Of a stretch of 64,000 bases of DNA, positions 1 to 19,940 are shown piece by piece. Source of the DNA: Candidatus Stercoripulliclostridium sp. (GTDB lineage: Bacteria > Bacillota > Clostridia > Christensenellales > DTU072). The notes beneath the pieces were generated by a model that was not told the DNA's origin, did no database searches, and saw only the letters and a program-made list of their open reading frames with translations. The position numbers and the translations under genes are program-made. How positions within the stretch are numbered: position 1 is the first letter of the stretch; each line of letters starts with the position of its first letter. The stretch lies in assembly GCA_045535235.1 (NCBI GenBank), contig JAZSLG010000071.1:3445-67444 (forward strand). The letters are read 5' to 3'.

Positions 1-29
1 AAAATAAAAAAAGTAAAACGAGGTTTCAA

Positions 30-449
30 ATGATAAGATTCGAAAAAGGATTACAGTCAACACATGAATTAAAAAAAATTACTTATAGGATGCTTCGAAA
101 ACTGCATACTCTTGAATATAAGAGTTCATTAAAGGATTGTCAAAAAATAGGAAGTAAGTACGCAGTAATACTATATTTAGAACATATGTTAACGGTGATG
201 AAGCGTTCTTATGAGGGTTTAGAAATAATTAATCCGCTAATTGCAAAAATAGATAATCTTATCAGATCTATTCAAAATCAAAAACATGTGAATCGGGTGT
301 TACTGGTTTCATGCTTGAAAAAACATACATATGTATTTAATATGTTGGAGAGTAATCATGTCTATAATATTAAAAATGCTGAATTATCGGAACTATGGTC
401 AATGAAATGTCTGTCGACCTATGTGTTTCAATTCGGAAACAATTTGTAA
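30..449 (+). CDS. hypothetical protein (139 aa, looks all-helical), immediately upstream of SIR2 gene
   Basis: ORF track. It stops 28 nt before the SIR2 start. I recognise no motif, and only a weak RBS precedes the ATG. Confidence 0.45.
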   Translation: MIRFEKGLQSTHELKKITYRMLRKLHTLEYKSSLKDCQKIGSKYAVILYLEHMLTVMKRSYEGLEIINPLIAKIDNLIRSIQNQKHVNRVLLVSCLKKHTYVFNMLESNHVYNIKNAELSELWSMKCLSTYVFQFGNNL

Positions 450-476
450 TGGTCAAATTGTAAAGGAGGATTGTGA

Positions 477-1394
477 ATGGCGATTTCTATAGAGGAAGCA
501 AAAAAGGAATTGGGCGCACTGCTTAAAAAAAACAAATTGTGTATTTTTGCGGGGTCAGGTATTTCAGTACCAGCTCCATCTAATCTACCAACTTGGGATG
601 AATTTGTTGATAAATATATAGATATTTGCAAAGAAATCAATGAAATGGTTGATTCGACACTGAAATTTAAAGAGTTATTGGACGATGCGCAAAGCTACAA
701 AACAAAAAGTGCCATCAACACATTAACTGTTTTAAAAGATAAAATACGATTCTGCAAAAAACATGGGATGAGTACGACCATATACGATGAAATGTTAAAT
801 GAATTATTTGCAGCAAAAGATTTTAATGATTATCATAGCACAATCGTAGATACCAACTATAAATATATATTAACCACTAATTATGATACGTTGTTGGATA
901 AGGCAGCAAAAATGCATAAGCACTATGACTTAGTACAAAGAATATATTCTTACAAAAACCTGCAAGGAATTTCTGAAGCCATATATACTGAAGAACCTGC
1001 AATTATTCACATTCATGGTATTGCAACGGAGGTAGTTTTAGAAGACTTTATTCTAACGGCAGATGACTATAAGCGAATTCGTGATAAAAATAAGGGAATA
1101 AGGACTTTATTAAATATTCTTTTTATGAACTACTCTATGCTTATGGTGGGTTATGGCGCAAGTGATCCACATTTAGAAGATGTTATAGAAGACATAAATT
1201 TGAGTTTTGGATGGATGGATTCGGACAATATTCTTGATTTACCAACATATTATTTGATTATAAAAAAAGACAAAGTCAGTCCAATTTTTGATCAGTTAAA
1301 AAATAGGAATAGAACAAAAGTTATTGCGGTAGAAACACACGATGAGGCACTAGAGTTGTTAAAATACCTACAAACTATTTCCCCTAAAACATAA
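477..1394 (+). CDS. SIR2-family (SIR2_2/ThsA-DSR-like) NAD+-utilising protein, stand-alone 305 aa
   Basis: Motifs: N-terminal CIFAGSGIS..P..LPTW (Rossmann NAD-binding loop), TTNYD (aa 133-137), IHIHG (His180) and VGYGASDPH (aa 224-232), the pattern of defence-type SIR2_2 domains. Strong RBS aaaggagg upstream. Confidence 0.8.
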   Translation: MAISIEEAKKELGALLKKNKLCIFAGSGISVPAPSNLPTWDEFVDKYIDICKEINEMVDSTLKFKELLDDAQSYKTKSAINTLTVLKDKIRFCKKHGMSTTIYDEMLNELFAAKDFNDYHSTIVDTNYKYILTTNYDTLLDKAAKMHKHYDLVQRIYSYKNLQGISEAIYTEEPAIIHIHGIATEVVLEDFILTADDYKRIRDKNKGIRTLLNILFMNYSMLMVGYGASDPHLEDVIEDINLSFGWMDSDNILDLPTYYLIIKKDKVSPIFDQLKNRNRTKVIAVETHDEALELLKYLQTISPKT

Positions 1395-1540
1395 ATTTTA
1401 CATGACCATTGACAATAGAGAAATGTGTTCTTGCACCAAAATGCATTCTGGATCATATTGCAATATTTAGGTGCTCGTGATTTTGTAAAATGTGGTGAAA
1501 TCAAAGTGTAGCCTTTTCGTACTACTTAGACACAAAAGGG

Positions 1541-1566
1541 AAGCAAGTCTTATGACTTGCTTTTTC
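1541..1566 (+). terminator. rho-independent terminator downstream of SIR2 gene
   Basis: 9-bp stem aagcaagtc / gacttgctt, loop ttat, then a T-run. Confidence 0.55.
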
Positions 1567-1968: not shown

Positions 1969-1998
1969 TTGACAACTAACCAACAGTTAGTTTATAAT
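1969..1998 (+). promoter_or_regulatory. sigma70-like promoter with an embedded inverted repeat (likely XRE operator)
   Basis: TTGACA (1969-1974), 18-nt spacer, TATAAT (1993-1998). The spacer carries the inverted repeat actaac-caaca-gttagt (1975-1991). It lies between the divergent XRE gene and the small Zn-ribbon gene. Confidence 0.5.
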
Positions 1999-2028
1999 AA
2001 ATTTATCATAATAAAAAAGGAGAAAAAT

Positions 2029-2238
2029 ATGGCATACGCACCTAATAAATGCCCAATGTGTGGAGAAAGCGATAAATGGATAAAAGTTGATACGGATAAG
2101 AAAGGTTTTTCAGTAGGCAAGGCAGTCGTTGGAGGAGTTATTTTTGGTCCAATTGGATTGCTTGGTGGTGGATTAGGGAAAAAAACCGTAACATATGCTT
2201 GTGGTAAGTGCGGTTTTCAACACGAGTACAAAGGTTGA
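2029..2238 (+). CDS. small Zn-ribbon protein with a central glycine-zipper segment (69 aa)
   Basis: CPMCG ... CGKCG cysteine pairs flank AVVGGVIFGPIGLLGGGLG. RBS aaaaggag precedes the ATG at 2029. The 1969 start in the ORF track overlaps the promoter and is unlikely. Confidence 0.6.
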   Translation: MAYAPNKCPMCGESDKWIKVDTDKKGFSVGKAVVGGVIFGPIGLLGGGLGKKTVTYACGKCGFQHEYKG

Positions 2239-2391: not shown

Positions 2392-3546
2392 ATGAATATA
2401 CTAAAGACAAAAGTATTTAGAATTATAGCTATTGTCGTTGCTTGCGTACTGGTCGTTGCAGGCTCGGTTTCTATTGGACTTTGGGAGTATGCCAAGGACG
2501 TTTATTACATAAATAAAGATGGTAACGTAGCATATCAACAAGAACATATGCGGTATCTTAGAGAGGATTTTTACTCCAATTATACGCCAAAAGGGGAGCA
2601 AATTTTTTGTGATTTCGATTTAGAGGAAGCTCTGAATAATGGCGTTAAGTATAACGAAATGGCCTTTTTAGCCACGCATAATAGTTATCAACGTCTTTCT
2701 ACGGAAACAACTAGAAAATTCCAAATACCTTTTAAGGTGATGGCATTGGGACTCAAAGAGTTTAACAAAGTGGATTTTGATTCCGATACTTTGACAAACC
2801 AATTTGAGCAAGGTATTCGTAGTATAGAGTTAGATATAGAGGCAATGGAAAAAGAAAGTGGCATTTCCTTTACCGTTATGCACAAGCCGGTTTTTGATAG
2901 TGCAACCACTTGCTTCGATTTTGGTATGGCGTTAGAAGAAATAGTTATGTGGTCAAATCACAACCCCAACCATTTACCCATATCCATTATTATAGAGGCT
3001 AAACAAGACGTTGGACCGGTTGACGGGCTAAAGATATTCTCCATTAAACACGCAGAGCAGTTTGACAACCTTCTTAGAGAAAAGTTGGGTAACAAGTTAC
3101 TAACTCCTGCAGATTTTTTAGGTGAACACGCTACCTTTGAAGATATGAGAAATGCCGATGATTGGATGAAAGTTAAGGATATGCTTGGAAAGGTCGTAGT
3201 TATTTTACACGAAAACAAAATGACCAAAGATTACGTTAAAAGGGATGAAACCTTGCGTACCCAAGCAATGATACCATCTGTTTTATACAAGCAAAGGAAC
3301 AGACATTATGCCGGAATTATCATAGAAAACAACCCCAAAAAGGCACTTGAAAGGCAGGACGTATTTGAAAGTGGTAACTTTATGGTAAGAACGAGGGCCG
3401 ATAGTTATCCCAAGTTTAGCGATACCAGATACGAGCGCACTGAGAGGTGTACTTCGCAAATAATCACGAGCGATTACGTACCTCGTTCCGTTAGATTAAA
3501 TCAACACGTTTACTCATTCAACGGATATACCGTAAAGCTATTGTAA
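2392..3546 (+). CDS. membrane-anchored PLC-like phosphodiesterase (PI-PLC X-domain-like)
   Basis: N-terminal TM segment (IIAIVVACVLVVAGSVSIGLW). FLATHNSYQ and IRSIELDIE motifs are typical of bacterial Ca-dependent PI-PLC-like domains. Confidence 0.7.
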   Translation: MNILKTKVFRIIAIVVACVLVVAGSVSIGLWEYAKDVYYINKDGNVAYQQEHMRYLREDFYSNYTPKGEQIFCDFDLEEALNNGVKYNEMAFLATHNSYQRLSTETTRKFQIPFKVMALGLKEFNKVDFDSDTLTNQFEQGIRSIELDIEAMEKESGISFTVMHKPVFDSATTCFDFGMALEEIVMWSNHNPNHLPISIIIEAKQDVGPVDGLKIFSIKHAEQFDNLLREKLGNKLLTPADFLGEHATFEDMRNADDWMKVKDMLGKVVVILHENKMTKDYVKRDETLRTQAMIPSVLYKQRNRHYAGIIIENNPKKALERQDVFESGNFMVRTRADSYPKFSDTRYERTERCTSQIITSDYVPRSVRLNQHVYSFNGYTVKLL

Positions 3547-3688: not shown

Positions 3689-4033
3689 TTGGTGATTTAT
3701 ATGGCGATAATGGTTAATATCTATTATACCGGTAAAGATGGAAATGCCGTAAAGTTTGCAAAAGAGATGACTGAAAGCGGAATTGTTAGTCAAATTCGTG
3801 CCGAAGAAGGCAATTTGAAATATGAATATTGCTTTTTGATGGAGGATCGCGAAACAGTGCTTCTAATTGATAGTTGGGTGAATCAACAAGCTCTTGATTT
3901 ACACCATGCGTCGCCCATGATGCAAAATATAATAGACTTGCGTGAAAAATATAATCTCTCTATGAGGGTGGAAAGATATATATTGGATGAGGCAGGTATT
4001 CCCGAAAAAGACAAGGCGTTCATTCGAGGTTAA
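3689..4033 (+). CDS. ABM-domain (antibiotic biosynthesis monooxygenase-like) protein
   Basis: About 105-114 aa with a ferredoxin-like ABM pattern (LLIDSWVNQQALDLHHASPMMQ). The start is uncertain: TTG 3689, ATG 3701 or ATG 3710. Confidence 0.65.
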   Translation: MVIYMAIMVNIYYTGKDGNAVKFAKEMTESGIVSQIRAEEGNLKYEYCFLMEDRETVLLIDSWVNQQALDLHHASPMMQNIIDLREKYNLSMRVERYILDEAGIPEKDKAFIRG

Positions 4034-4140
4034 GGTTTTATTGGAATCATATTATTAAAGGGGATAATCCAAAGTGTAAAAAGGGCATTGGTCTTTTGAT
4101 ATATTGTAGGTATTACGGGTTTTACAAAGGAGAAGGCGGG

Positions 4141-5058
4141 ATGAGGTTAGTAGATATAGGAAGTACTTTCGTTTTAGAAAAAGTTGGTACCCAAGAAAGA
4201 GAATATTACGTTTTAATTGAGCCTATCGTAGAGTATAAGCCCATTTTTTCAGGCGGAAGTTTTAGGGATAGGATTGCTCATAGGCGTGTCGTTCATATAA
4301 ACGTGGTAGACGTTGATAGCAAATTTGAAAGGGTCTCCAAGGATTCTGATTTTGGCAAGCACGTTTATGGAGCAAGCCTTGGGTCTTTGATTTATTGGAA
4401 AGATGAAACGGGCAAAAACGTGCCTTATCGTATTGTTGAAATAGATAATGAAAAAATAGTTTCTAGCGTAAAGCCTATTAAAAAGGTTGAATCTAAAAAA
4501 GAAATACAGACGCCAGAACCTAAAAAAGTAATTAATAAATCAAGCGAAGAGAAAAGAATTAAGGTTTCGGAAAAAGAAAAACGAGAGTATGCAACTGCTT
4601 TAGAAATAGTTAGAGAACAAGTTAAAAACAATCAAGGATTAATCGTTTTGTGGAGACCACAGTGGACGCATGATTTTTGTTTTGTCGTGGAATCTTTCGA
4701 ATGGGATAAAAATGAACTCTTTTTTGTTGGGACCTGTTTCGTTGAAGGAAAGGTTCATCAAAGGAATAGGCGATTTCTGGCAAGGCATGAATTCAAACTA
4801 TACGACGGTGTATATCTATCAAAAATACAATTCACTTATAAATATTTGCCTATAACGATAGAAAGAAAAGATTTTATCGAGTTGGATGAAAAATATATAA
4901 AAATAAAGGATGAACTCAATAACCTCATCATAGAGGAGATTGGAGAGGATACTTTTGAGGGGTATAAATATTTGTATTGGGGGATGAAAAAGAAAATATT
5001 AAAGGAAAAGTACGGTATTGATTGGAAAACCCCGAAAGAATTAAACCCTAATTTATAA
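4141..5058 (+). CDS. hypothetical protein; N-terminus resembles a GreA/B C-terminal (FKBP-like) fold, then a Lys/Glu linker and an unknown C-terminal domain
   Basis: RBS aaaggagaagg precedes the ATG at 4141. VGSTFVLE...YYVLIEP...FGKHVYGASLGSLIYW...YRIVEI follows the Gre C-terminal pattern by eye only. Confidence 0.55.
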   Translation: MRLVDIGSTFVLEKVGTQEREYYVLIEPIVEYKPIFSGGSFRDRIAHRRVVHINVVDVDSKFERVSKDSDFGKHVYGASLGSLIYWKDETGKNVPYRIVEIDNEKIVSSVKPIKKVESKKEIQTPEPKKVINKSSEEKRIKVSEKEKREYATALEIVREQVKNNQGLIVLWRPQWTHDFCFVVESFEWDKNELFFVGTCFVEGKVHQRNRRFLARHEFKLYDGVYLSKIQFTYKYLPITIERKDFIELDEKYIKIKDELNNLIIEEIGEDTFEGYKYLYWGMKKKILKEKYGIDWKTPKELNPNL

Positions 5059-5076: not shown

Positions 5077-5496
5077 GTGAAAGAAAACAAAATTTTGGAA
5101 AACGGAAAGGGCAAATATTTGGATATCGTTGAGTACGATAAGGATATGGGCGAGTATAACATATCTGAAGAGGGATTAGCAAAACTCCGTGGCAAGTCCC
5201 TCATGGAACAAGTAGATTGCTACAAGGCGATTGCGACCACCAGTTTGTGTAGCTATTCCTATGGAAGAGAGGACGGCAGTAGTTACCGAGGCATAGAGAA
5301 TTCTTTTTGGACTGATAGCGATATTGAAGGAATTATTGTTGATAACGGCATAATTGTTGGCGTAAAAGCAAAAAAATTCTTGTACGGCTTATGCAATCTA
5401 TTCCCCGGTGAAACAATAAATACCTATTCCGCTTGTGACGAGGACGGCACCGGTGGAAGGGATAGGGATGATTATCTAAGAATAGAAATAAAATAA
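5077..5496 (+). CDS. hypothetical protein (139 aa)
   Basis: ORF with a GTG start 18 nt after the previous stop and RBS aaaggaaagg. No recognised motif. Confidence 0.5.
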   Translation: MKENKILENGKGKYLDIVEYDKDMGEYNISEEGLAKLRGKSLMEQVDCYKAIATTSLCSYSYGREDGSSYRGIENSFWTDSDIEGIIVDNGIIVGVKAKKFLYGLCNLFPGETINTYSACDEDGTGGRDRDDYLRIEIK

Positions 5497-5530: not shown

Positions 5531-6325
5531 TTAGTCGATGGGGTAATGATGTAAAATATGATTTATAAGTTTTAACGAGGAACGCTCAATTTCACTTGCA
5601 TCAAAGGTGAAAATATCAAGTCCAGCAAGGAAAGGAAAATGATTAAGTATATTATCATAATCTTGACTTTCCATAATACCATTGTTTTTTATATATACAG
5701 GCACAATTATTTTATTCTGTGAAAAAGCTGTTTCGTATTCTGCGCGAATAAACTTACTGTTAATTGAATTTTCGGATATTAGTAGGAGGAAAAATGGATG
5801 ATTATCAATAGCATTTATTAGAGAAGAAACCCAATCAACGCCTACCAACAAATTGTCGAAAGACCAAAATTTTATGCCGTATTTTGAGAGATAGTCCATT
5901 ATTGATGAAGCTACTTGAGCGTCACGCCGTGAGTAACTAATAAAGAAGCCTTGCGCTAACAGTATCTTGCGAAAAACTTTATCTATTTGGCGTTTGGTAT
6001 CAAAAGATAGTTCATTATTGCTATCAAGACAGTTTTCCAAATCGATTTCCAATACGTTGTCTTTTCCCGTTTTTGCCACGTAATCAAGTTCGCTTTTTAC
6101 CCATTTTGATGCCTCGGCATTTTTAGATCTACAATAAATAAACCATATCCTTGCATCAATTTCGTCTTGTATGAGCTTAATTATGGTGTTTTCATCATCC
6201 AAAGATTTCAAAAAGAAAAGTATAGGCTCGCAACCAATCGATTCGAGATAATTTCGTATAAGTCTTACTTCATATAAGTCTTTATGTGAGTGTGAAACGA
6301 ATATATAAATTTGATTATCCAACAT
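5531..6325 (-). CDS. tandem TIR-TIR domain protein (264 aa)
   Basis: Domain 1: IYIFVSHSHKD ... SKWVKSELDY. Domain 2: FFISYSRRD ... ISENSINSKFIRAEYETA. Both show the TIR beta-A motif and a conserved Glu region. RBS ggagga precedes the ATG at 6325; the 6403 start has no RBS. Confidence 0.8.
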   Translation of the reverse strand: MLDNQIYIFVSHSHKDLYEVRLIRNYLESIGCEPILFFLKSLDDENTIIKLIQDEIDARIWFIYCRSKNAEASKWVKSELDYVAKTGKDNVLEIDLENCLDSNNELSFDTKRQIDKVFRKILLAQGFFISYSRRDAQVASSIMDYLSKYGIKFWSFDNLLVGVDWVSSLINAIDNHPFFLLLISENSINSKFIRAEYETAFSQNKIIVPVYIKNNGIMESQDYDNILNHFPFLAGLDIFTFDASEIERSSLKLINHILHHYPID

Positions 6326-6474: not shown

Positions 6475-6792
6475 ATGGAAAGAAAATACATTATTGATTG
6501 GAAAAAGACCAGTAGAAATTTATATCTTTTGAGAAAAGACAATATTGAATTACGCAAAAAAGTTTGTAAAGAATTGGATTTGCACAGGGAAGAATGTAGT
6601 GAAAACTGCAAAGAATGCAAATATGAAATGGATAGTAGCATTAGTAGATACGAGTTATCGCAAGTTTTTAACGTTTCGGAAAGCGTAATTTTTAATTGGG
6701 AAAACAATAAAACCACGGTTCCTTATGAAGATTTGTTGTTCTATTGCCAATTGGCAGAGGTAAGTGTGGAGGACATCGTAGTTTTTGAGTGA
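6475..6792 (+). CDS. XRE-like HTH protein with a Cys-containing insert (105 aa)
   Basis: ELSQVFNVSESVIFNWENNKTTVPYEDLLFYCQLAEVSVEDIV is an HTH_3-like C-terminus. RBS gaaggaga precedes the ATG at 6475. Divergent from the TIR gene. Confidence 0.6.
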   Translation: MERKYIIDWKKTSRNLYLLRKDNIELRKKVCKELDLHREECSENCKECKYEMDSSISRYELSQVFNVSESVIFNWENNKTTVPYEDLLFYCQLAEVSVEDIVVFE

Positions 6793-7139: not shown

Positions 7140-7859
7140 ATGGGATTAAATAGTGTAGGCGTATCAAGAAATATCGACATAGTATTTTGTATTGATGGAA
7201 CTGGTAGCATGTCTCCTTGCCTTGATAAGGTAAAAGCTAATGCAAGAAAGTTCTACATGGATTTCGTTGATGAAATGGTAAAAGACGGTACCAACGTTGA
7301 TTGCTTAAACATGAAAGTTATTACTTTCCGTGATTACAAGGACGATGGCCCCAATGCAATGATAGAAAGTGAATGGTATGATATGACCGCAGGCGATGAA
7401 GACAAATATGAAAAGCACCTTAGCGGTATTATTGCAGACGGTGGCGGTGACGAACCCGAAAACGGATTGGAAGCTTTGTTCCAAGCAATGTGTACAAAAT
7501 GGAATGCAAAGGGCGATAAGGATAGACAAATAATCGTATTGTTTACCGATGCGGATGCTCTTCCCTTAAAGGACCGTGAAGGCGTTTCCGGATATCCTGC
7601 AAATATGGTTGACCAAGATGGCTTGATTAAAGCTTGGTTCTGTACTCGCCCCGATTTTCTTTCACAAGGAGAATTTTCTCTAAGAGAAAGATGCAAGAGA
7701 TTGGTTATGTTTGCTCCCGCAGGTAGCGCTTATGAAAATCTTTCCACTCTTTTGAATCGTAGCATTTTCAAACCTGTTGAGATGAATTCCGGTCTAGGTG
7801 AAATAGATTTTAGTGACGTAATTAAAATCGTTAAAGCATCTGCTAGCGCTGCGTCATAA
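7140..7859 (+). CDS. vWA-domain protein, TerY-like (paralog A)
   Basis: MIDAS-type DIVFCIDGTGSM, GGGDEPENGLEA and LFTDADA motifs. Strong RBS aaaggagg. Confidence 0.85.
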   Translation: MGLNSVGVSRNIDIVFCIDGTGSMSPCLDKVKANARKFYMDFVDEMVKDGTNVDCLNMKVITFRDYKDDGPNAMIESEWYDMTAGDEDKYEKHLSGIIADGGGDEPENGLEALFQAMCTKWNAKGDKDRQIIVLFTDADALPLKDREGVSGYPANMVDQDGLIKAWFCTRPDFLSQGEFSLRERCKRLVMFAPAGSAYENLSTLLNRSIFKPVEMNSGLGEIDFSDVIKIVKASASAAS

Positions 7860-7902
7860 TTAGATTTCGGTTCAAACATTTTAATATTAATACAAAAATA
7901 AG

Positions 7903-7930
7903 TAATAAGCCGATTAATATCGGCTTATTA
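7903..7930 (+). promoter_or_regulatory. perfect 12-bp intercistronic stem-loop abutting the next RBS
   Basis: taataagccgat-taat-atcggcttatta. No T-run follows, and the RBS gaaggag begins at 7932. Confidence 0.5.
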
Positions 7931-7943
7931 CGAAGGAGAAGAT

Positions 7944-14104: not shown

Positions 14105-17100
14105 ATGCTTCATTTGAGACGAAATGATTTGGAAGAGATTGTAAAATCAATGTCGAGTGGCCCTATAACCGCAAAAGACCTTGACGAATTAATCAAGGGC
14201 TTGGGTGAAGTGTATAAGGAAGTCAAAGAAAGAGAGGACGTCGCCGAACAAAAAAGGCTTCAAAAGGAAAAAGAAGAGCGCGAAAAGGTGGAAAACGTTA
14301 CCTGCATGGAGCTTCCTTTGGACTATGAGAACTATTTTGAATACGATATGAATGCAACGAGTGTGCGCGTAGAGTCGGCATCCGATGCTTTGATAACCTC
14401 GCTAAACAATTTGGGCAGAGTGGATATTGAGTATATGTCGGTAATATCGGGACTTACGCACAAGGCTCTCATAGTGGAACTTAAAGGTGCCATATACCAA
14501 AATCCGGACAAATGGGAGGAATGTTTTTACAAAGGTTGGGAGACTGCTGATGAATATTTGTCGGGCAATCTACTGCGCAAACGAGCCAAAGCCGTTGACT
14601 GTGAAAAAAAGTATAAAGGATGGTTCCAGGATAATATTAGGGCAATCGACGAGGTCCTTCCCGATGCCGTTTCCACCCTTGATATATACGTTACTTTAGG
14701 CTCGCCCTGGGTGCCGACCGACGTGATTGAGGACTTTATAGACTATCTATACAACCACAAAAAGACCTACGTAAAATTGCGTGGTAGCGTTATTCACGAC
14801 GAAGAAACGGGAACTTGGGAAATAATTGATAAAAACCGTTACTATCACGACACGCTAAGCACCAGCACCTACGGTACCGATAGAATGGAAGCACTTTACA
14901 TTTTGGAAAAAACACTCAATATGCGTTCGATTGCCGTAACCGACGAGGTGCCGTGCATTAGTAATAAGTCGGGTAAAAAGCGCGTAATTAATCAAAAAGA
15001 GACCCTTCTTGCTATTGAAAAGCAAAAGAAGATGATAAAAATGTTCCAAAATTGGGTGTGGCGTGACGATGCTCGCAGAGAGCGCCTTGAAATTATCTAC
15101 GAGAATAATTACAGTTGTTACCGCACGAGAAAGTATAACGGATCCTTCCTCACTTTTCCAAAGATGAATCCCGATATCGTTCTTTATCCATACCAAAAGG
15201 ACGCCGTCAGTCGCATATTGTTTTCGCCCAACACCTTGCTTGCGCACGACGTAGGCTCGGGGAAAACCTATATCATGATTGCCGCCGGTATGGAAATGCG
15301 CCGAATGGGTTTGTCTAAGAAGAATATGTACGTCGTACCTAACAATATAGTGGGACAATGGAACAGAATGTTCTTGGAGCTTTATCCTAGTGCGCACTTG
15401 CTCGTGGTGGAGCCAAAGCATTTTACACCCGCAAAAAGACAAGATACCCTAAAAAAGATTAGGGATAACGACTATGATGCGGTAATTATGGCGTACAGCT
15501 GTTTTGACCAAATTCCTCTTTCTTATGATTACTATCTTGCCGAAGCTAGGGAGCGTAAAAAGGAACTGGAGAACAGAGTTTTCTCTAGGGCTAGGACCAC
15601 GCATACCGTTCAAAAAAAGTTGGAGAAGATGAAAAAAGAGGTGTCGGAGCTATCACAACAGTTATATAACGTAGTGATGGCAGGTGAAATTTACTTTGAC
15701 CAGTTGGGCATTACCAGGTTATTCGTAGACGAGGCGCACAACTATAAGAACGTACCCGTGGAAACCAAGATTAATAACGTACTTGGAATATCGGAGACAG
15801 GTAGTGAAAAGTGTAAGCTTATGATGGCAAAGGTGCATCAAGTACAAAAGAGTAACGAGGGAAAGGGGGTTGTTTTTGCAACGGGAACGCCCATAACCAA
15901 CTCAATAACCGATGCCTTTATCATGCAACTCTATCTACAAAGCGGTGAACTTGCCTTATTAGATATACAAAACTTTGATGCGTGGGTAGGCATGTTTGCC
16001 GAGAAGGAAGAAAGCTTTGAAATCGACGTCGATACCAAGAATTATAGGTTGGCAACAAGGTTTTCCAAGTTTCATAATATCCCGGAGCTAACTTCGTTAT
16101 TATCATCTATTGCGGATTTTCATATCACTAAAACTAGCGAAGATTTACCCGTATTTACGGGATATACTGATGCTTTGGTGGGGAAAACGCCTGATTTCCA
16201 AGATTATTTGGACAAAATATCCGACCGAGCCGAAGCCGTAAGAAAGGGGCAAGTTGGTAGGAACGAGGACAATATGCTTTTGATAACTACCGATGGTAGA
16301 AAGGCTGCTCTCGACCTTCGTTTGGTGGATAACACTAAACCCTTCGTGTTCCAATCAAAGGTGGCACGTTGCGCCGAAAACGTCTATAACATATACGATA
16401 AGACAATGGAAGGGAAATTGACACAATTGGTTTTTTGTGATACATCCGTTCCCAGTGACCGGTTTAATATGTACGACGAACTCAAAAGGTTGCTTTTGGC
16501 CCTTGGTATTCCCGAGCAAGAAATAGCATTTATACACGACGCAACGACGGACAAGAGTAGGCTTGCATTCTTTGACAAGGTGCAAAAGGGCGAAATTAGA
16601 GTGCTAATGGGATCCACTTTCAAGTTGGGTATTGGCGTAAACGTACAAAACAAGCTGGTTGCCATCCATCATTTGGACGTGCCTTGGCGCCCTGCAGATA
16701 TGGTACAACGCGAAGGAAGAATACTACGTCCCGGCAATACTAATGGTAGAGTATTCATATACCGCTACGTAACGGAAGGGAGTTTTGATGCGTACTCGTG
16801 GCAACTCTTGGAGAGTAAGCAACGCTTCATATCCGGTCTGCTTGCCGGATCCATCACCGAAAGGAATAACGTTGATATTAGCGATACTATACTAAATTAC
16901 GCCGAAGTAAAGGCGCTCGCAATAGGTAATCCTCTCATTAAAAAGAGGGTGGAAAAGGCAAATGAGTTAACAAAACTTTATGCTTTACAAGCCAAACACG
17001 TGGAGAATAAGGACAAAATTTCGAGAAAACAGCAAGAAATTCCCACTCTTATCAGTCAGGCACAAGAGAGAGTGGACAAATGCAAGGCGGACTTTGATTA

Positions 17101-17527
17101 CTACACCGAGCATAGGATGGAGCTAGGAAAAGAGGATAAAACGCGCTACGCTAAGCTTGTTTACAACGGAGTATTAGACAACGAAATGCAAATTGAGGAG
17201 CGCGTGATAGGAGTCTTCCAAGGCTTTGATATCATACTTCCCTCCCACATGCAAAATGAAAGACCTTTTATTTATCTAGCGCGCGAAAGTCGTCACCAAG
17301 TGGAAATCGGCGAATCGGAAGTAGGTGTTGTTTTCCGCATGATTAACTGCTTAGATAACCTCGGCAAGCGCCTCGATAGACTAAGATACAGAGTGTCACA
17401 GTTGGAGTTTGAACGCATCGAAATTGAGCGCGAACTTAACAAACCGGGTGGATACCTTGATGAAATTGAGGCACTAAAGAATGAAATCAAAGAAATTGAT
17501 AGAAAATTGGGGGTAAAACTTAAATGA
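14105..17527 (+). CDS. SNF2-family (SF2) helicase/translocase, 1140 aa, with a non-helicase N-terminal region and a C-terminal coiled coil
   Basis: Motifs: LYPYQKDAV, HDVGSGKTY (GSGKT = nt 15254-15268), LFVDEAHNYKN (DEAH = nt 15728-15739), ATGTPITNS, MGSTFKLGIGVNVQ, MVQREGRILRPGN (nt ~16706-16720). RBS aaggag. Confidence 0.9.
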   Translation: MLHLRRNDLEEIVKSMSSGPITAKDLDELIKGLGEVYKEVKEREDVAEQKRLQKEKEEREKVENVTCMELPLDYENYFEYDMNATSVRVESASDALITSLNNLGRVDIEYMSVISGLTHKALIVELKGAIYQNPDKWEECFYKGWETADEYLSGNLLRKRAKAVDCEKKYKGWFQDNIRAIDEVLPDAVSTLDIYVTLGSPWVPTDVIEDFIDYLYNHKKTYVKLRGSVIHDEETGTWEIIDKNRYYHDTLSTSTYGTDRMEALYILEKTLNMRSIAVTDEVPCISNKSGKKRVINQKETLLAIEKQKKMIKMFQNWVWRDDARRERLEIIYENNYSCYRTRKYNGSFLTFPKMNPDIVLYPYQKDAVSRILFSPNTLLAHDVGSGKTYIMIAAGMEMRRMGLSKKNMYVVPNNIVGQWNRMFLELYPSAHLLVVEPKHFTPAKRQDTLKKIRDNDYDAVIMAYSCFDQIPLSYDYYLAEARERKKELENRVFSRARTTHTVQKKLEKMKKEVSELSQQLYNVVMAGEIYFDQLGITRLFVDEAHNYKNVPVETKINNVLGISETGSEKCKLMMAKVHQVQKSNEGKGVVFATGTPITNSITDAFIMQLYLQSGELALLDIQNFDAWVGMFAEKEESFEIDVDTKNYRLATRFSKFHNIPELTSLLSSIADFHITKTSEDLPVFTGYTDALVGKTPDFQDYLDKISDRAEAVRKGQVGRNEDNMLLITTDGRKAALDLRLVDNTKPFVFQSKVARCAENVYNIYDKTMEGKLTQLVFCDTSVPSDRFNMYDELKRLLLALGIPEQEIAFIHDATTDKSRLAFFDKVQKGEIRVLMGSTFKLGIGVNVQNKLVAIHHLDVPWRPADMVQREGRILRPGNTNGRVFIYRYVTEGSFDAYSWQLLESKQRFISGLLAGSITERNNVDISDTILNYAEVKALAIGNPLIKKRVEKANELTKLYALQAKHVENKDKISRKQQEIPTLISQAQERVDKCKADFDYYTEHRMELGKEDKTRYAKLVYNGVLDNEMQIEERVIGVFQGFDIILPSHMQNERPFIYLARESRHQVEIGESEVGVVFRMINCLDNLGKRLDRLRYRVSQLEFERIEIERELNKPGGYLDEIEALKNEIKEIDRKLGVKLK

Positions 17528-18639
17528 GTGATATAAAACTAAATGACGTAGTAAACATGAACGTAGACGCTTTCGTGGAAAAGCTAGGTGGGGCCTATTC
17601 TACCATTATAAACAAGGGATTGCCCGTCAAAAGTTTTCCATCCGTCATGCTTTGGGGCGCGCCGGGTGTCGGTAAATCGCAAGGAGTAAGGCAAATTGCC
17701 ACCAAAATAGAGGAAGAAACGGGCAAAAAGGTTTTCGTTACCGACGTTCGTCTGCTCCTATTTAATCCCATCGACCTTCGTGGTATACCCACGGCAAACC
17801 AAGATAAAACTCTTGCCGTTTGGCTAAAACCACAAATATTCCAAATGAACGAAAGTAAGGACGTTGTGAACATATTGTTTTTGGACGAAATATCGTCGGC
17901 TCCGCAGTCGGTACAAGCCTCCGCTTACCAAATTACTCTCGATAGGGTTGTGGGTGAGCATAAACTACCCGAAAACTGCATAGTTATTGGCGCAGGTAAC
18001 CGTTTGACCGATAAATCCGTCGCCTATAAAATGCCAAAAGCCCTTGCTAACCGTTTGCTACATATTAACGTTGAGGGTAGTTTTGCGTCGTGGAATAAGT
18101 GGGCGGTTAAGAGTGGAATAAACGCCAAAGTATTAGGCTTTCTTTCCTTCCAAAAGGATAGTTTGTTTAAGGGTAGCGAGAACTCGGAGGACCTCGCTTT
18201 CCCCACACCACGTTCGTGGGAAATGGTTAGCAACGTCCTTAACTCGGTATCCGACGACGTAAAAGAGGTTTTCCCATTTATTGCGGGGCTTGTGGGCGTG
18301 GGTATGGCATCGGAATTTCGTACTTGGTGCAAAATATATGCCAATTTGCCTAAAATAGAGGACATTTTTGCAGGAAAACGCCCGCCCGTTCCTCGCGATA
18401 CCGATGCATTATATGCTTTGGTTTCCGCCATGGTGTCCCATGCACGAGAGATTAAAAACGACCTTGGTAAAATCGCAAATTCCATCGATTATGCGAACTT
18501 AATCCCCGCAGACTTTTCGGTAATACTAATGAAAGATTATGCTTATTTGGAAAAGGATTATCAAAAAAAGTTAATGGCCATTCCCGAATATATGCGTTGG
18601 TTACAAACGAGGGGGAAATTGTTAAATGGTAATAACTAA
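17524..18639 (+). CDS. MoxR-like AAA+ ATPase (AAA_5 type)
   Basis: Walker A is LWGAPGVGKSQ (nt 17656-17679). Walker B is ILFLDEIS (DE = nt 17884-17889). GAGNR and PTPRSWE lie downstream. The ATG overlaps the SNF2 stop (ATGA). Confidence 0.85.
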   Translation: MSDIKLNDVVNMNVDAFVEKLGGAYSTIINKGLPVKSFPSVMLWGAPGVGKSQGVRQIATKIEEETGKKVFVTDVRLLLFNPIDLRGIPTANQDKTLAVWLKPQIFQMNESKDVVNILFLDEISSAPQSVQASAYQITLDRVVGEHKLPENCIVIGAGNRLTDKSVAYKMPKALANRLLHINVEGSFASWNKWAVKSGINAKVLGFLSFQKDSLFKGSENSEDLAFPTPRSWEMVSNVLNSVSDDVKEVFPFIAGLVGVGMASEFRTWCKIYANLPKIEDIFAGKRPPVPRDTDALYALVSAMVSHAREIKNDLGKIANSIDYANLIPADFSVILMKDYAYLEKDYQKKLMAIPEYMRWLQTRGKLLNGNN

Positions 18640-19882
18640 GGAGCAAAAAGCAGGTTTTGTGCGAAAACTTATTGCCTCTCGCACGCGCATGCTTTGCAAT
18701 CACGGCTTTTACGGAATGTTGTTGATGCACCTTCCCTTTATGTTAGACGAAAGCATAACGACTGCCGCAACCGATGGTAAAGCAATATACTTTAGCCCCA
18801 ATTTTCTTAGTCGTTTAACGAACTCGGAGTTGGATTTTGTACTCATGCACGAAGTGCTTCACGTTGTGCTAAGGCATATTAACAGGTCTAAAATTTTTGA
18901 GGAAAATCCAATTCTTGCCAATATCGCTTGCGATATAGTGGTAAATTCCAATATTTTGTACTCTTGCAGTATGAAGATAAGCTCCATATCGGTAGATGGA
19001 ACGGTGTCCATGCATCTTACTCCAAACGGCGACGAGGGATATTTGTATACGGCAGAAGAGGTATATAACATGCTTAATGTGTCGAATCAAAACGCAATAA
19101 AAGCAAAAGGTAGAGGGCGAAAAGGTAACGATGGTGAAAAATCCAACGGCGAATCAGACGAGTTGACTGTTGACGACCATAGCAAATGGGAATCTCTTGG
19201 AGAGGAAGAAAAGCAAGAGATACAAGAAAATTGGGAACAGCATTTGAGAAGTGCATCACAAAATATTAGGATAAAGGAAAGCAGTAACAATTGCGGTAAT
19301 ATTCCTCTTTGCGCGCAAAGGGTATTGCAAGAACTTAGCAAAGCGCAAACCGATTGGCGCACCTTACTGACCGATTTTGTGCAAGAAGAGGTGTTGGACT
19401 ACTCATTTAATCCTCCCGACAAAAGGTATAGTGAAAGCGACTTTTTTATCCCCGACTTTAACGTTAGTTACGATTTAGTGCCGGGAAACGTGCTATTTAT
19501 GATAGATACCTCGGGGTCGGTTTCGGACGATATGATAGCAAGAGCGTATAGCGAAATTAAGGGCGCAATAGACCAGTTTGATGGCAAAATAACAGGACAT
19601 TTGGGCTTCTTTGATGCAAGCGTTGTCCCTGCCCAACCCTTTGTTGACTTGGATACGTTACTCAAGATTCTACCAAGAGGTGGCGGTGGCACAAGTTTCC
19701 ATGCGGTATTCGATTACGTGGATTCCTTGGAAGAAAAGCCCACGAGCATAGTAATACTAACCGATGGAGAAGCCCGTTTTCCAAAAGAGGAAAGGGCGAA
19801 AGGCATACCCGTATTGTGGTTGATTATAGATAATAAAATAACCCCTCCCTGGGGAAAAACAGCAAGGGTTACCGCCGTGTAG
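18626..19882 (+). CDS. putative HExxH metallopeptidase domain + vWA domain protein (DUF2201_N/DUF2201-type MoxR partner)
   Basis: Motifs: TAATDGKAIYF, MHEVLHVVLRH (HEVLH = nt 18848-18862), NIACDIVVN. C-terminal vWA with LFMIDTSGSVS (DTSGS = nt 19505-19519), GGGTSF and ILTDGE. The start lies 14 nt inside the MoxR gene. Confidence 0.85.
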   Translation: MVITKEQKAGFVRKLIASRTRMLCNHGFYGMLLMHLPFMLDESITTAATDGKAIYFSPNFLSRLTNSELDFVLMHEVLHVVLRHINRSKIFEENPILANIACDIVVNSNILYSCSMKISSISVDGTVSMHLTPNGDEGYLYTAEEVYNMLNVSNQNAIKAKGRGRKGNDGEKSNGESDELTVDDHSKWESLGEEEKQEIQENWEQHLRSASQNIRIKESSNNCGNIPLCAQRVLQELSKAQTDWRTLLTDFVQEEVLDYSFNPPDKRYSESDFFIPDFNVSYDLVPGNVLFMIDTSGSVSDDMIARAYSEIKGAIDQFDGKITGHLGFFDASVVPAQPFVDLDTLLKILPRGGGGTSFHAVFDYVDSLEEKPTSIVILTDGEARFPKEERAKGIPVLWLIIDNKITPPWGKTARVTAV

Positions 19883-19906
19883 GGTAAGGCGGTGAAAAAA
19901 GGTGGT

Positions 19907-19940
19907 GCTACCCCACGCTTTGGCGTGGGGTAGCTTTTTT
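19907..19940 (+). terminator. strong rho-independent terminator ending the SNF2-MoxR-vWA operon
   Basis: 12-bp stem gctaccccacgc / gcgtggggtagc, loop tttg, T6. Confidence 0.85.

What the first reader, a model, noticed from the sequence alone, without database searches (positions are those of the whole stretch)
1..19940. The first ~20 kb behaves as a defence island abutting ordinary metabolic genes
At least four modules with defence-type domains are packed together: SIR2; TIR-TIR; vWA-kinase-PP2C; SNF2-MoxR-vWA. Small regulators, a phospholipase-like protein and unknown genes lie between them. Each module has its own terminator. A block of housekeeping-type genes follows from 20,027. By eye, the first ~7 kb looks markedly more AT-rich than the rest of the window (not computed). 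No integrase, transposase, tRNA or flanking repeat is visible in the window, so the acquisition mechanism is unclear. SIR2 and TIR co-occur but are ~4 kb apart on opposite strands, so this is not a canonical Thoeris layout.
Basis: partly seen in the sequence, partly recalled or inferred. Interest (0 to 1): 0.6.

Follow-up and report, generated by a model that had tools for sequence, protein, structure and literature searches.

The report
Patchwork island of defence-type gene cassettes
The first 20 kb of this gut Clostridia contig is a patchwork of separately acquired accessory gene cassettes with immune-type domains, in a slot whose content differs between related genomes; none is a recognised complete defence system, and one three-gene cassette is widespread and seemingly undescribed.

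Summary
All domain calls are right. GC is 0.31-0.34 over 1-7000 against 0.415 for 19941-64000. The window holds no tRNA, integrase or flanking repeat.

The region is a mosaic that varies between relatives, but antiphage function is untested and PADLOC models give only domain-level hits.

- **1-1532** is the right end of a mobile element. It is 99.2-99.6% identical to ten metagenome contigs and homology stops at 1532, with at least four different right flanks. Three serine recombinases and TnpV lie just upstream in four of those contigs. Its terminal cargo is a conserved pair: a 139-aa protein plus a 305-aa SIR2.
- **TIR-TIR** is a solitary gene with a strain-level hypervariable patch. It is not linked to SIR2, so this is not Thoeris.
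- **HTH plus three vWA, kinase and PP2C** is a TerY-P-like triad variant. It forms about 109 protein clusters from gut and rumen Clostridia.
- **"SNF2-MoxR-vWA"** is a DarB-like helicase, a MoxR-like ATPase and a zincin-vWA protein. The operon is intact in nearly all of the 80 species loci examined, often beside WYL regulators or restriction genes, and I found no paper describing it.

Two related genomes each carry only one of these last two cassettes at the same locus.

The parts
1..1532 (+). Right-hand terminal segment of a mobile element that carries three large serine recombinases and TnpV just upstream in related contigs. The element ends at ...CTTAGACA (1532).
   Evidence: It is 99.2-99.6% identical to L001-L010. 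Homology stops at 1532, followed by at least four unrelated right flanks. The recombinase and TnpV genes appear in L001, L002, L005 and L007.
30..449 (+). 139-aa partner of the SIR2 protein. It has no Pfam, PADLOC or PHROG hit and evolves quickly.
   Evidence: No hits. A 140-aa homologue (51% identity) sits in the same position next to a 78%-identical SIR2 in L191. A weakly similar 144-aa ORF lies downstream of a 38% SIR2 in L195. Only 20 cluster representatives exist among 1.84 billion proteins.
477..1394 (+). Standalone 305-aa SIR2_2 protein, resembling the ThsA SIR2 domain but without a SLOG domain. Predicted NAD-consuming effector.
   Evidence: Pfam SIR2_2 at 5e-20. PADLOC ThsA1 matches only profile positions 6-214 of 478. 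TTNYD and HIHG motifs are present. There are 129 homologues of about 300 aa.
1541..1562 (.). Hairpin terminator of the target site, immediately outside the element end.
   Evidence: The other three insertion flanks also start with a hairpin terminator.
1969..2238 (+). Small zinc-ribbon and glycine-zipper protein. The likely start is the ATG at 2029, behind a perfect TTGACA-18-TATAAT promoter at 1969-1998.
   Evidence: PHROG phrog_2546 at 4.5e-14 and others. Promoter. Sequence.
2392..3546 (+). PI-PLC-like protein with an N-terminal membrane anchor. It is a gene conserved at this locus across related genomes, not a mobile cassette.
   Evidence: Pfam PI-PLC-C1 at 4e-34. It is 84% identical in L106 and 69% in L020.
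3689..4033 (+). ABM-family monooxygenase-like protein, absent from L106 and L020 at this locus.
4096..5058 (+). Unknown 305-320-aa protein with low GC (0.342) and no family hits. It is absent from L106 and L020.
5077..5496 (+). Unknown 139-aa protein that follows PI-PLC directly in L106/L111 (79% identity), so it is part of the conserved scaffold.
5531..6325 (-). Solitary protein with two tandem TIR domains (264 aa from the ATG at 6325; the ORF extends to 6403). GC is 0.33.
   Evidence: Pfam TIR_2 at 9e-28 (two stretches) and ThsB_TIR. PADLOC ThsB models give partial matches. It is absent from L020 and L106.
5750..5999 (-). Hypervariable patch in the C-terminal TIR domain, seen between two strains that are otherwise 99% identical.
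   Evidence: 41 of the 222 differences across 22.7 kb between the window and L017 fall in this one 250-bp bin.
6475..6792 (+). HTH (Cro/C1-type) regulator linked to the vWA-kinase-PP2C block. It has its own terminator at 6866-6886.
   Evidence: Pfam HTH_26/HTH_3. It is 75% identical and in the same position in L020-L022.
7140..9507 (+). Three TerY-like vWA proteins (7140-7859, 7944-8801, 8812-9507). The first and third are paralogues (44% identity). The second has a Cys-rich N-terminus. MIDAS DxS/TxS motifs are present.
   Evidence: The promoter at 7046-7074 is conserved in L020.
9535..11145 (+). Hanks-type Ser/Thr kinase with three C-terminal small beta-rich repeats of unidentified fold.
   Evidence: Pfam Pkinase at 6e-16. 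K42, HGD152-154, K156, N159, DFD175-177, SPE208-210 and R303 are invariant in 35 sequences. AlphaFold2 pLDDT is 89.7 and the fold matches kinases.
11159..13576 (+). PP2C phosphatase (about the first 350 aa, with an acidic insert) fused to a coiled-coil tail of about 450 aa.
   Evidence: DGxGG, GDSR, DG and D340 are invariant. A profile search hits PppA (6jkv, 3.7e-10), tPphA, Stp1 and PstP.
14105..17527 (+). 1140-aa helicase matching the helicase core of DarB-like giant proteins. It has no methyltransferase or nuclease domain.
   Evidence: phrog_10089 at 7.5e-241 over residues 87-1107. Matches in 2085 plasmid and 146 phage records. Pfam SNF2-rel, ResIII and Helicase_C.
17524..18639 (+). MoxR-like AAA+ ATPase. 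Its start overlaps the helicase stop.
   Evidence: Pfam AAA_3. phrog_1297 at 2e-91. Matches in 850 phage records.
18626..19882 (+). Zincin metallopeptidase (HExxHxxxxH) fused to a vWA domain (DUF2201_N plus DUF2201). Its start overlaps the ATPase stop. A strong terminator follows at 19907-19934.
   Evidence: Pfam at 8e-31 and 2e-17. H75, E76, H79, H84 and MIDAS D294, T295, S296, S298 are invariant. The vWA fold is confirmed. Terminator.
20027..20503 (+). Nim-like PNPOx-family protein. It is variable: absent at this position in L020 and L106.
20506..22028 (+). Metallophosphoesterase plus deoxyinosine-glycosylase (UDG family) pair. This is the conserved right flank of the variable slot.
   Evidence: 64-76% and 63-68% identical and adjacent in L020 and L106.
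23442..24479 (+). WYL-domain regulator. It may be associated with the helicase trio.
   Evidence: Pfam WYL. Homologues lie within 10 kb of the trio in 30 of 80 species loci.

Best explanation
Window 1-20505 is a composite variable region in an uncultured gut or rumen Clostridia genome. It was built by several independent events around a conserved scaffold, which runs PI-PLC, the 139-aa gene at 5077-5496, ..., metallophosphoesterase-UDG.

**(a) Mobile element end, 1-1532.** A mobile element moved by large serine recombinases inserted next to a terminator and ends at 1532. Its last two genes are a two-gene cassette. I infer that the SIR2 domain depletes NAD+ and that the fast-evolving 139-aa partner senses or restrains it.

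**(b) Low-GC insertions.** These add ABM, an unknown 320-aa gene, and a solitary TIR-TIR protein. The C-terminal TIR domain of that protein is diversifying between strains. I infer an NAD-cleaving or signal-making abortive-infection protein.

**(c) Older resident cassette: HTH, three vWA, kinase and PP2C.** This is a TerY-P-like phosphorylation switch. I infer that vWA MIDAS proteins bind a target. The Hanks kinase, with its three C-terminal repeats as the likely ligand-binding part, and the PP2C with its coiled-coil tail would set a phospho-state that triggers the response.

**(d) Helicase, MoxR-like ATPase and zincin-vWA operon.** The three genes are translationally coupled. I infer that a DNA-translocating helicase recruits a MoxR-driven vWA-peptidase.

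**Shown:** the element boundary, the presence or absence of cassettes between relatives, the conserved catalytic motifs, and the conservation of each cassette as a unit.

**Inferred:** every biochemical activity and the antiphage role.
For: **Mobile element.**
- Homology with ten contigs stops exactly at 1532, with at least four different right flanks.
- The recombinases and TnpV lie upstream in four of them.
- The 139-aa/SIR2 pair is conserved at 51% and 78% identity in a different island that carries a reverse transcriptase, a 998-aa SIR2 protein and a NACHT protein.

**Variable slot.** The three related genomes read:
- L020: HTH, three vWA, kinase, PP2C, a 328-aa gene, PI-PLC, Metallophos, UDG.
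- L106/L111: PI-PLC, the u139 homologue, a 205-aa gene, Metallophos229, the trio, an 886-aa gene, an FtsH-like gene, a 109-aa gene, Metallophos, UDG.
- The window has both cassettes, plus TIR, ABM and PNPOx.

**Composition.** GC is 0.31-0.34 for 1-7000 against 0.415.

**TerY-P link.**
- Of 80 metagenome loci holding distant relatives of the kinase, 50 have vWA (one to three copies), PP2C and kinase in the canonical order. Seven more have PP2C-kinase on cut contigs.
- Catalytic residues are invariant.
- Other genomic contexts of the cassette:
  - a TraG/VirD4 coupling protein;
  - a tyrosine integrase with a TIR protein;
  - a TIR-STAND protein;
  - a serine recombinase.

**Trio.**
- The same order and the same overlapping gene boundaries occur in nearly every one of 80 species loci with enough upstream DNA.
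- Neighbours include WYL (30 of 80), an IetA-like AAA-protease (12 of 80), GmrSD-like genes, a Cas4-like gene, type III R-M and PDC-S02.
- One copy lies in an island integrated at a tRNA.
Against: - No module matches a complete known system. PADLOC HMM hits are partial.
- The helicase, ATPase and zincin-vWA families are best known from phages and plasmids.
- The trio has host-like GC. Its identity to L106 (79-85% for the helicase and ATPase) is as high as that of the flanking genes, which suggests long residence rather than recent gain.
- Only 3 of 80 trio loci have an integrase or recombinase within 10 kb.
- The left chromosomal flank is outside the window.
- All close relatives are metagenome assemblies, so presence or absence elsewhere in those genomes is unknown.
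- No function was tested.
Confidence: 0.6

Rival explanations
1. The helicase, MoxR-like ATPase and zincin-vWA operon, and perhaps more of the region, serves mobile elements rather than the host. It would be an antirestriction or establishment function like P1 DarB, or a virion or complex-assembly chaperone like the phage MoxR-vWA-peptidase pairs. On this reading the block is a remnant of an integrated element, not host immunity.
For: - phrog_10089 "DarB-like antirestriction" matches at E 7.5e-241. phrog_1297 and phrog_1314 match at full length.
- The helicase matches 2085 plasmid records, 706 of them conjugative. The ATPase matches 850 phage records.
- The ATPase and zincin-vWA pair occurs in Bacillus phage G and in an IMG/VR contig.
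- A published proposal assigns such pairs a virion-assembly role in jumbo phages (PMC7824862).
- One copy lies inside an island carrying a tyrosine integrase at a tRNA.
Against: - The helicase lacks the methyltransferase part of DarB-like proteins.
- The phage and plasmid records do not carry the three genes together.
- 77 of 80 species loci have no integrase or recombinase within 10 kb.
- GC is host-like, and divergence from L106 tracks the flanking genes.
- Neighbours are restriction and regulator genes rather than phage structural or conjugation genes.
Confidence: 0.2
2. Only the SIR2 pair and the TIR-TIR gene are immune genes. The vWA-kinase-PP2C block would be an ordinary stress-signalling module. 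The trio would be a DNA or protein quality-control machine, for example one that removes proteins stuck on DNA. "Defence island" would then overstate what is simply a plastic accessory region.
For: - TerY-P triads were first described as a metal-sensing phosphorylation switch in tellurite-resistance loci (Anantharaman 2012, as quoted in PMC11090510).
- The block and its HTH, promoter and flanks are syntenic in a genome only 63-75% identical, so it is old at this locus.
- The trio matches 545 stretches in a collection of one genome per species and has host-like GC.
- A few homologues carry a precomputed SprT-like hit (PF10263).
Against: - TerY-P-like modules are reported as stand-alone antiphage systems (Gao 2020, as quoted).
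- The block sits beside a TIR-STAND protein, TIR with an integrase, a TraG-like gene or serine recombinases in other genomes.
- The trio is missing from L020 at the shared locus, and its neighbours are enriched in restriction-type genes.
- The fold search did not match the peptidase part to SprT or any other solved peptidase.
Confidence: 0.2
3. The SIR2 gene and the TIR-TIR gene together form a split, non-canonical Thoeris system.
For: PADLOC ThsA1 and ThsB models hit the SIR2 and TIR domains. Both genes lie within 5 kb of each other.
Against: - The SIR2 protein has no SLOG or Macro sensor domain and is only 305 aa.
- It lies on a separate mobile element that occurs in ten other contexts without the TIR gene.
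- It has its own conserved 139-aa partner.
- The strain L017 contig, which carries the TIR gene, breaks before reaching SIR2.
Confidence: 0.03

Closest known systems
TerY-P triad (Anantharaman, Iyer and Aravind 2012; stand-alone antiphage TerY-P of Gao et al. 2020, as summarised in PMC11090510)
   Same: It has TerY-like vWA proteins with MIDAS motifs, a Hanks Ser/Thr kinase and a PP2C phosphatase in one operon. Distant relatives of this kinase sit in canonical vWA-PP2C-kinase triads in most of 80 metagenome loci.
   Different: The gene order is vWA (two or three copies), kinase, PP2C. The PP2C carries a coiled-coil tail of about 450 aa. The kinase C-terminus is three small beta-rich repeats, not the OB-fold or zinc ribbon described for TerY-P. 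A linked HTH gene is present. No PADLOC model matches the vWA or PP2C proteins, and STK_OB reaches only E 0.009 on the kinase core.
Thoeris (ThsA SIR2-SLOG plus ThsB TIR)
   Same: A SIR2_2 domain resembling the ThsA N-terminus and ThsB-like TIR domains both occur within 5 kb.
   Different: There is no SLOG or Macro domain. The two genes belong to different, independently moving segments. SIR2 has its own 139-aa partner, and the TIR protein has two TIR domains.
DarB of phage P1 and DarB-like methyltransferase-helicase proteins of phages and plasmids (phrog_10089)
   Same: Residues 87-1107 of the 1140-aa helicase align to the helicase core of this family at E 7.5e-241. Thousands of plasmid homologues show 36-38% identity.
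   Different: It has no methyltransferase domain. It is chromosomal, and always fused in an operon with a MoxR-like ATPase and a zincin-vWA protein.
MoxR-vWA systems: conflict systems with a third component (Kaur et al. 2020, PMC7159879; PMC12839542) and the jumbo-phage MoxR plus peptidase-vWA pair (PMC7824862)
   Same: A MoxR-type AAA+ ATPase is paired with a vWA protein fused to a peptidase. The phage pair is directly homologous (45% and 33% identity to phage G).
   Different: The third component here is a DarB-like helicase, not a VMAP or inactive STAND protein. The peptidase is an N-terminal zincin with an intact HExxH motif.
Mobile elements moved by large serine recombinases and carrying TnpV (the Tn4451 family is the textbook example, recalled from my own knowledge)
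   Same: Related contigs have TnpV plus large serine recombinase genes next to one element end, and insertions at several different sites.
   Different: There are three tandem recombinase genes. The terminal cargo is a SIR2 pair rather than a resistance gene. The left end, the size and the transfer genes of the element were not seen.
Defence islands and integration hotspots in bacterial genomes
   Same: Different cargo occupies the same slot between conserved flanking genes in related genomes. There is a low-GC segment and a mobile-element end.
   Different: No complete known system was identified here. Two of the four cassettes look like old residents, not recent arrivals.

Membership tests
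Thoeris | ThsA: an NADase effector (SIR2 or a transmembrane domain) fused to a SLOG or Macro signal-binding domain | tested here: not met
   The 305-aa protein has only SIR2_2 (residues 131-266). PADLOC ThsA1 covers profile positions 6-214 of 478, so there is no SLOG part.
Thoeris | ThsB: a TIR-domain protein | tested here: met
   TIR_2 at 9e-28 and ThsB_TIR at 9e-8. PADLOC ThsB models reach down to 6e-12 as partial matches.
Thoeris | thsA and thsB are adjacent and inherited together | tested here: not met
   They are 4 kb apart on opposite strands. SIR2 lies on an element ending at 1532, which is found in ten contigs without the TIR gene.
TerY-P | TerY-like vWA protein | tested here: met
   Three vWA proteins with MIDAS motifs. 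Homologous vWA genes stand next to related kinases in canonical triads.
TerY-P | PP2C-family phosphatase | tested here: met
   Pfam PP2C_2 is only 7e-5. The family profile hits solved PP2C phosphatases at 3.7e-10, and the metal-binding Asp motifs are invariant.
TerY-P | Ser/Thr kinase | tested here: met
   Pkinase at 6e-16, invariant catalytic residues and a kinase fold.
TerY-P | Kinase fused at its C-terminus to an OB-fold (Gao 2020 type) or a zinc ribbon (CoCoNuT type) | tested here: inconclusive
   The C-terminus is three confident small beta-rich repeats (pLDDT about 87-90). No Cys ribbon is present, and there is no sequence match in PDB. The repeat fold was not compared on its own.
TerY-P | Match to the system's published sequence models | tested here: not met
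   PADLOC gives no hit for the vWA or PP2C proteins even at E 10. STK_OB reaches E 0.009 on the kinase core only.
TerY-P | Protects against phage | not testable with these tools
   This needs cloning and phage challenge.
DarB-like antirestriction proteins | Helicase core of the family | tested here: met
   phrog_10089 at 7.5e-241, residues 87-1107 against profile positions 2105-3180 of 4647.
DarB-like antirestriction proteins | N6-adenine methyltransferase domain in the same protein | tested here: not met
   No methyltransferase domain appears in Pfam or in the precomputed domain list: WH_1, DUF8437, SNF2-rel, ResIII, Helicase_dom, Helicase_C.
MoxR-vWA conflict systems with a third component | MoxR AAA+ ATPase plus a vWA protein carrying a peptidase | tested here: met
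   AAA_3, DUF2201_N with an invariant HExxHxxxxH motif, and a vWA domain with MIDAS; the vWA fold is confirmed.
MoxR-vWA conflict systems with a third component | Third component of the VMAP or inactive-STAND type | tested here: not met
   The only conserved third gene is the DarB-like helicase.
Defence island or hotspot | Content differs between related genomes at the same flanked locus | tested here: met
   The window, L106/L111 and L020 share PI-PLC and Metallophos-UDG but differ in cassettes.
Defence island or hotspot | Contains several recognised defence systems | tested here: not met
   There are only domain-level PADLOC HMM hits. The full DefenseFinder or PADLOC rule sets could not be run.
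Defence island or hotspot | Association with mobile-element genes or ends | tested here: met
   An element end lies at 1532, with recombinases upstream in related contigs. A serine recombinase lies 7 kb upstream of the block in L020.

The most novel reading that the evidence does not exclude
The operon of DarB-like helicase, MoxR-like ATPase and zincin-vWA protein (14105-19882) is a new, self-contained immune system of gut Firmicutes. It matches 545 stretches in a collection holding one genome per species, is often paired with a WYL regulator, and is absent from current defence catalogues. In this reading a DNA-tracking helicase directs an ATP-driven peptidase against proteins of an invading element. 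The three-vWA, kinase and long-PP2C cassette would be a second new antiphage variant, of TerY-P.
Probability: 0.3. Interest if true: 0.75.

Novelty: new variant of a known kind. Interest (0 to 1): 0.55.

Why it matters
Gut and rumen Clostridia are poorly covered by defence catalogues, which were built mostly from cultured Proteobacteria and Bacilli. This one locus yields three testable candidates:

- a minimal two-gene SIR2 cassette carried as terminal cargo of a serine-recombinase element;
- a distinct TerY-P-like clade;
- a three-gene helicase, MoxR-like ATPase and peptidase-vWA operon that is conserved as a unit in hundreds of species and that I found undescribed.

If the last proves to be immunity, it would add a peptidase-based effector coupled to a DNA translocase. 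It would also show host use of protein families so far known from phage and plasmid counter-defence. If it proves to be counter-defence or repair, that corrects a natural misreading of such "defence-type" domains.

Tried and rejected
**Searches that found nothing**
- A genome-contig scan with the kinase alone found no relative.
- Exact look-ups of PI-PLC, the 305-aa unknown and the 264-aa TIR protein found no other contig, so the left part (1533-4100) could not be compared with any relative.
- Viral-contig scans for SIR2 and TIR-TIR found nothing.
- PADLOC at E up to 10 for the vWA, PP2C, 139-aa and unknown proteins gave only noise.
- Single-sequence PDB searches gave nothing for the PP2C N-terminus or the kinase C-terminus. 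Only the family profile worked for PP2C.
- Literature searches gave no description of the trio: DUF2201 with MoxR, DUF2201 alone, DarB with MoxR, and DUF8437.

- The Foldseek search of the kinase returned only kinase domains, so the C-terminal repeats stay unidentified.
- The Foldseek search of the zincin-vWA model matched only the vWA half. The linker is poorly modelled (pLDDT below 50 for 161-181 and 214-284). The idea that the peptidase is SprT/Wss1-like therefore remains a guess.

**Ideas rejected**
- The trio as typical integrase-linked cargo: only 3 of 80 loci have an integrase or recombinase nearby.
- A 22-nt repeat upstream of vWA1 and vWA2 as a conserved operator: it is not conserved in L020.
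- Thoeris (see the membership test).

Full report
**Source.** Exact-sequence look-ups place the window on a 70,984-bp NCBI contig of an uncultured Clostridia bacterium. The few near-identical sequences come from gut and rumen-type metagenomes. The window holds no tRNA and no Rfam family.

**The observation.**
PI-PLC-like, ABM, HTH and unknown genes lie between them.
- GC was computed as follows:

| Interval | GC |
|---|---|
| 1-1532 | 0.313 |
| 1533-7000 | 0.344 |
| 7001-13576 | 0.381 |
| 14105-19940 | 0.433 |
| 19941-64000 | 0.415 |

- No integrase, transposase or flanking repeat is in the window.
- Terminator-like hairpins follow some but not all modules.
- PADLOC models give only partial, domain-level matches: the ThsA SIR2 part, ThsB, kinase cores, and the DrmD/BrxH helicase C-terminus. 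They give nothing for the vWA, PP2C or DUF2201 proteins, even at E 10.

**Segment 1-1532 is the end of a mobile element.**
- The exact SIR2 protein occurs on 16 contigs. Ten were fetched. All align to window 1-1532 at 99.2-99.6% identity.
- All ten lose homology at the same base, after ...CTTAGACA. The exception is L001, where an IS interrupts at 1472.
- Beyond that base the window and the contigs have at least four unrelated sequences, each beginning with a hairpin terminator.
- In L001, L002, L005 and L007 the 139-aa ORF is preceded directly by three large serine recombinase genes and a TnpV gene.
- In the L003 group the recombinases are replaced by a radical-SAM, PNP and NADAR cluster. Homology to the recombinase context begins inside the 3' end of the third recombinase gene, so this is a rearranged derivative.
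- The window is slightly closer to the recombinase-bearing contigs (99.6% against 99.15%). This suggests, but does not prove, that recombinases lie just upstream of the window.

**The 139-aa/SIR2 pair is a unit.**
- A 78%-identical SIR2 in a different island has a 140-aa gene (51% identical) in the same position. That island also carries an RHS toxin, a reverse transcriptase, a 998-aa SIR2 protein, TnpV and a NACHT protein.
- A 38% homologue has a weakly similar 144-aa gene downstream.
- The partner family is tiny: 20 representatives among 1.84 billion proteins.

**1533-7000.**
- This low-GC stretch mixes scaffold genes with insertions.
- PI-PLC (84% identical in L106, 69% in L020) and the 139-aa gene at 5077-5496 (79% in L106, directly after PI-PLC there) are conserved locus genes.
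- ABM, the 320-aa unknown and TIR-TIR are not found in those relatives.
- The TIR-TIR gene is solitary, and the HTH next to it belongs to the vWA block (see below).
- Strain contig L017 is 99% identical to the window over 4101-26861. Of the 222 differences, 41 fall in one 250-bp bin (5750-5999), inside the C-terminal TIR domain. Such local diversification is expected of a protein that contacts a fast-changing partner.

**HTH, three vWA, kinase and PP2C (6475-13576).**
- *Family.* The kinase has 109 homologous protein clusters, nearly all full-length. Every named source is an uncultured Clostridia-type MAG.
- *Kinase.* An alignment of 35 shows all Hanks catalytic residues invariant. The AlphaFold2 model (pLDDT 89.7) is a kinase plus three small C-terminal beta-rich repeats.
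- *Phosphatase.* The 805-aa protein is a true PP2C. DGxGG, GDSR, DG and a final Asp are invariant in 20 family members. The family profile hits PppA, tPphA, Stp1 and PstP (best 3.7e-10). About 450 aa of coiled coil follow.
- *Contexts.*
  - L020-L022 (63% kinase identity) have the same HTH (75%), three vWA, kinase and PP2C, with a conserved promoter.
  - L023-L025 (34%) have two vWA, kinase and PP2C beside a TIR-STAND protein.
  - L026 lies beside a TraG/VirD4 coupling protein.
  - L028 lies beside a tyrosine integrase, a TIR protein and an HD-AAA protein.
- *Link to TerY-P.*
  - A metagenome scan with the kinase alignment gave 80 loci. 50 of them have vWA (one to three copies), PP2C and kinase in that order, and 7 more have PP2C-kinase on cut contigs.
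  - That order is the TerY-P triad as defined in the literature (PMC11090510).
  - The window's cassette is therefore a distinct clade of that superfamily, differing in four ways: the kinase and phosphatase are swapped, the phosphatase is long, the kinase C-terminus is different, and there are extra vWA paralogues.

**The helicase trio (14105-19882).**
- *Family matches.*
  - The "SNF2" protein matches the helicase core of DarB-like antirestriction proteins at E 7.5e-241. It has homologues in 2085 plasmid and 146 phage records.
  - It has no methyltransferase domain.
  - The ATPase and the zincin-vWA protein match phage families at full length (2e-91 and 3e-80). The ATPase is in 850 phage records. 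The pair occurs in phage G and an IMG/VR contig without the helicase.
  - A jumbo-phage survey noted such a MoxR plus peptidase-vWA pair and proposed a virion-assembly role (PMC7824862).
- *Motifs.* The zincin HExxHxxxxH motif and the MIDAS motif are invariant. The vWA fold is confirmed, but the peptidase half found no structural match.
- *Conservation.*
  - A scan of one genome per species found 545 matching stretches.
  - In the best 80 loci the three genes stand in the same order with the same overlapping boundaries wherever upstream DNA exists. The helicase is disrupted in two loci.
  - The titles span many Bacillota families plus single Eggerthellaceae, Muribaculaceae and Parasutterella bins, all at about 50% identity. 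This indicates horizontal spread or mis-binned contigs.
- *Neighbours.*
  - Nothing else is conserved around the trio except a WYL regulator, present in 30 of 80 loci. The window has one at 23442-24479.
  - Other recurrent neighbours:
    - an IetA-like AAA-protease (12 of 80);
    - GmrSD-like enzymes;
    - a Cas4-like nuclease;
    - an AAA_21 ATPase;
    - in L108, PDC-S02 and a type III R-M system inside an island integrated at a tRNA with a tyrosine integrase.
  - Only 3 of 80 loci have an integrase or recombinase within 10 kb.

**Locus comparison.** Three related genomes share PI-PLC on one side and metallophosphoesterase-UDG on the other.

| Genome | Gene order at the locus |
|---|---|
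| Window | PI-PLC, ABM, u320, u139, TIR, HTH-vWA-kinase-PP2C, trio, PNPOx, Metallophos, UDG |
| L106/L111 (74-80% DNA identity) | PI-PLC, u139, 205 aa, Metallophos229, trio, 886 aa, FtsH-like, 109 aa, Metallophos, UDG |
| L020 (66-70%) | serine recombinase ... HTH-vWA-kinase-PP2C, 328 aa, PI-PLC, Metallophos, UDG |

- Each big cassette is present in one relative and missing from the other at this locus.
It is not met.
- Trio identity to L106 (helicase 79%, ATPase 85%) matches that of the flanks (Metallophos 76%, PI-PLC 84%), and its GC is host-like. The trio and the vWA block are therefore old residents, not recent arrivals.
- Synteny to the right of UDG is lost between the window and the other two genomes.

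**How it most likely works.**
- *Shown:* the boundaries, the cassette integrity and the intact catalytic motifs.
- *Inferred from the named families:*
  - SIR2 and TIR would consume NAD+ or make nucleotide signals on infection. The 139-aa partner and the variable TIR patch would be the recognition parts.
  - The vWA-kinase-PP2C block would act as a phosphorylation switch under an HTH regulator.
  - The trio would be a DNA translocase coupled to an ATP-driven peptidase-vWA complex, perhaps under WYL control.
- Whether the trio serves the host (defence), mobile elements (counter-defence) or repair cannot be decided from sequence.

**Known or new.**
- A variable island of immune-type genes is a known kind of thing.
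- The TerY-P-like clade and the two-gene SIR2 cassette are new variants.
- The trio is not in PADLOC-DB v2, and I found no paper on it in the searchable library. That library is incomplete and DefenseFinder could not be run, so prior description elsewhere cannot be excluded.

**Caveats.**
- All relatives are metagenome assemblies.
- The left chromosomal flank and the recombinase genes are outside the window.
- The neighbourhood enrichment lacks a background control.

Noticed in passing
window 45994-55188 and 55291-63999: Two tandem giant ORFs: one of 3064 aa and one of at least 2903 aa that runs off the window end. The first has an N-terminal membrane or signal segment, is rich in G, V, S and T, and has no Pfam hit at E 1e-5. 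They are probably huge surface proteins.
   Followed up: partly
window 5750-5999: 41 of the 222 differences between the window and the 99%-identical strain contig L017 cluster in the C-terminal TIR domain, and they include an indel. This is local diversification or gene conversion.
   Followed up: yes
window 23442-24479: WYL-domain regulator. Homologues lie within 10 kb of the helicase, ATPase and zincin-vWA operon in 30 of 80 species loci, on either side and either strand. It may be the operon's regulator.
   Followed up: partly
window 26861 (inside 26815-28098, a Bmp/PnrA-like binding protein): Homology to strain contig L017 stops 46 bp into this gene although L017 continues for another 600 bp. 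This is a second strain-variable point downstream of the island.
   Followed up: no
L003, L004, L006, L008-L010 (upstream of the 139-aa/SIR2 pair): In six contigs the three recombinases are replaced by a cluster of radical-SAM enzymes, a PNP_UDP_1 protein, DUF6273 proteins and a NADAR protein. Homology to the recombinase context resumes inside the 3' end of the third recombinase gene.
   Followed up: partly
L191-L194: An island with an RHS toxin, a sigma factor, the 140-aa/SIR2 pair, a reverse transcriptase (RVT_1) with a 229-aa partner, a 998-aa SIR2 protein, TnpV and a NACHT protein.
   Followed up: no
L152 and L168: In 2 of the 80 species loci the helicase gene of the trio is disrupted. L168 has two helicase pieces about 5.5 kb apart. 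L152 has only an 858-bp fragment, with a serine recombinase in the locus.
   Followed up: no
window 1969-2238: A small zinc-ribbon and glycine-zipper protein sits behind a perfect TTGACA-18-TATAAT promoter. It matches the C-termini of several PHROG families of unknown function, immediately outside the mobile-element end.
   Followed up: partly
window 7001-7022 and 7879-7900: A 22-nt AT-rich repeat (91% identical) lies upstream of vWA1 and of vWA2. It is not conserved in L020, so it is probably not an operator.
   Followed up: yes
window 42373-43683 (minus strand): A stand-alone condensation-domain protein (NRPS-type), next to an alpha/beta hydrolase at 44711-45619 and just upstream of the giant ORFs.
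   Followed up: no
L106/L111 11413-15720: In the closest relative, the trio is followed by an 886-aa unknown protein and an FtsH-like AAA plus M41 protease. In another species the homologue of this protease matches PADLOC IetA at 2.9e-25. It recurs near the trio in 12 of 80 species.
   Followed up: partly
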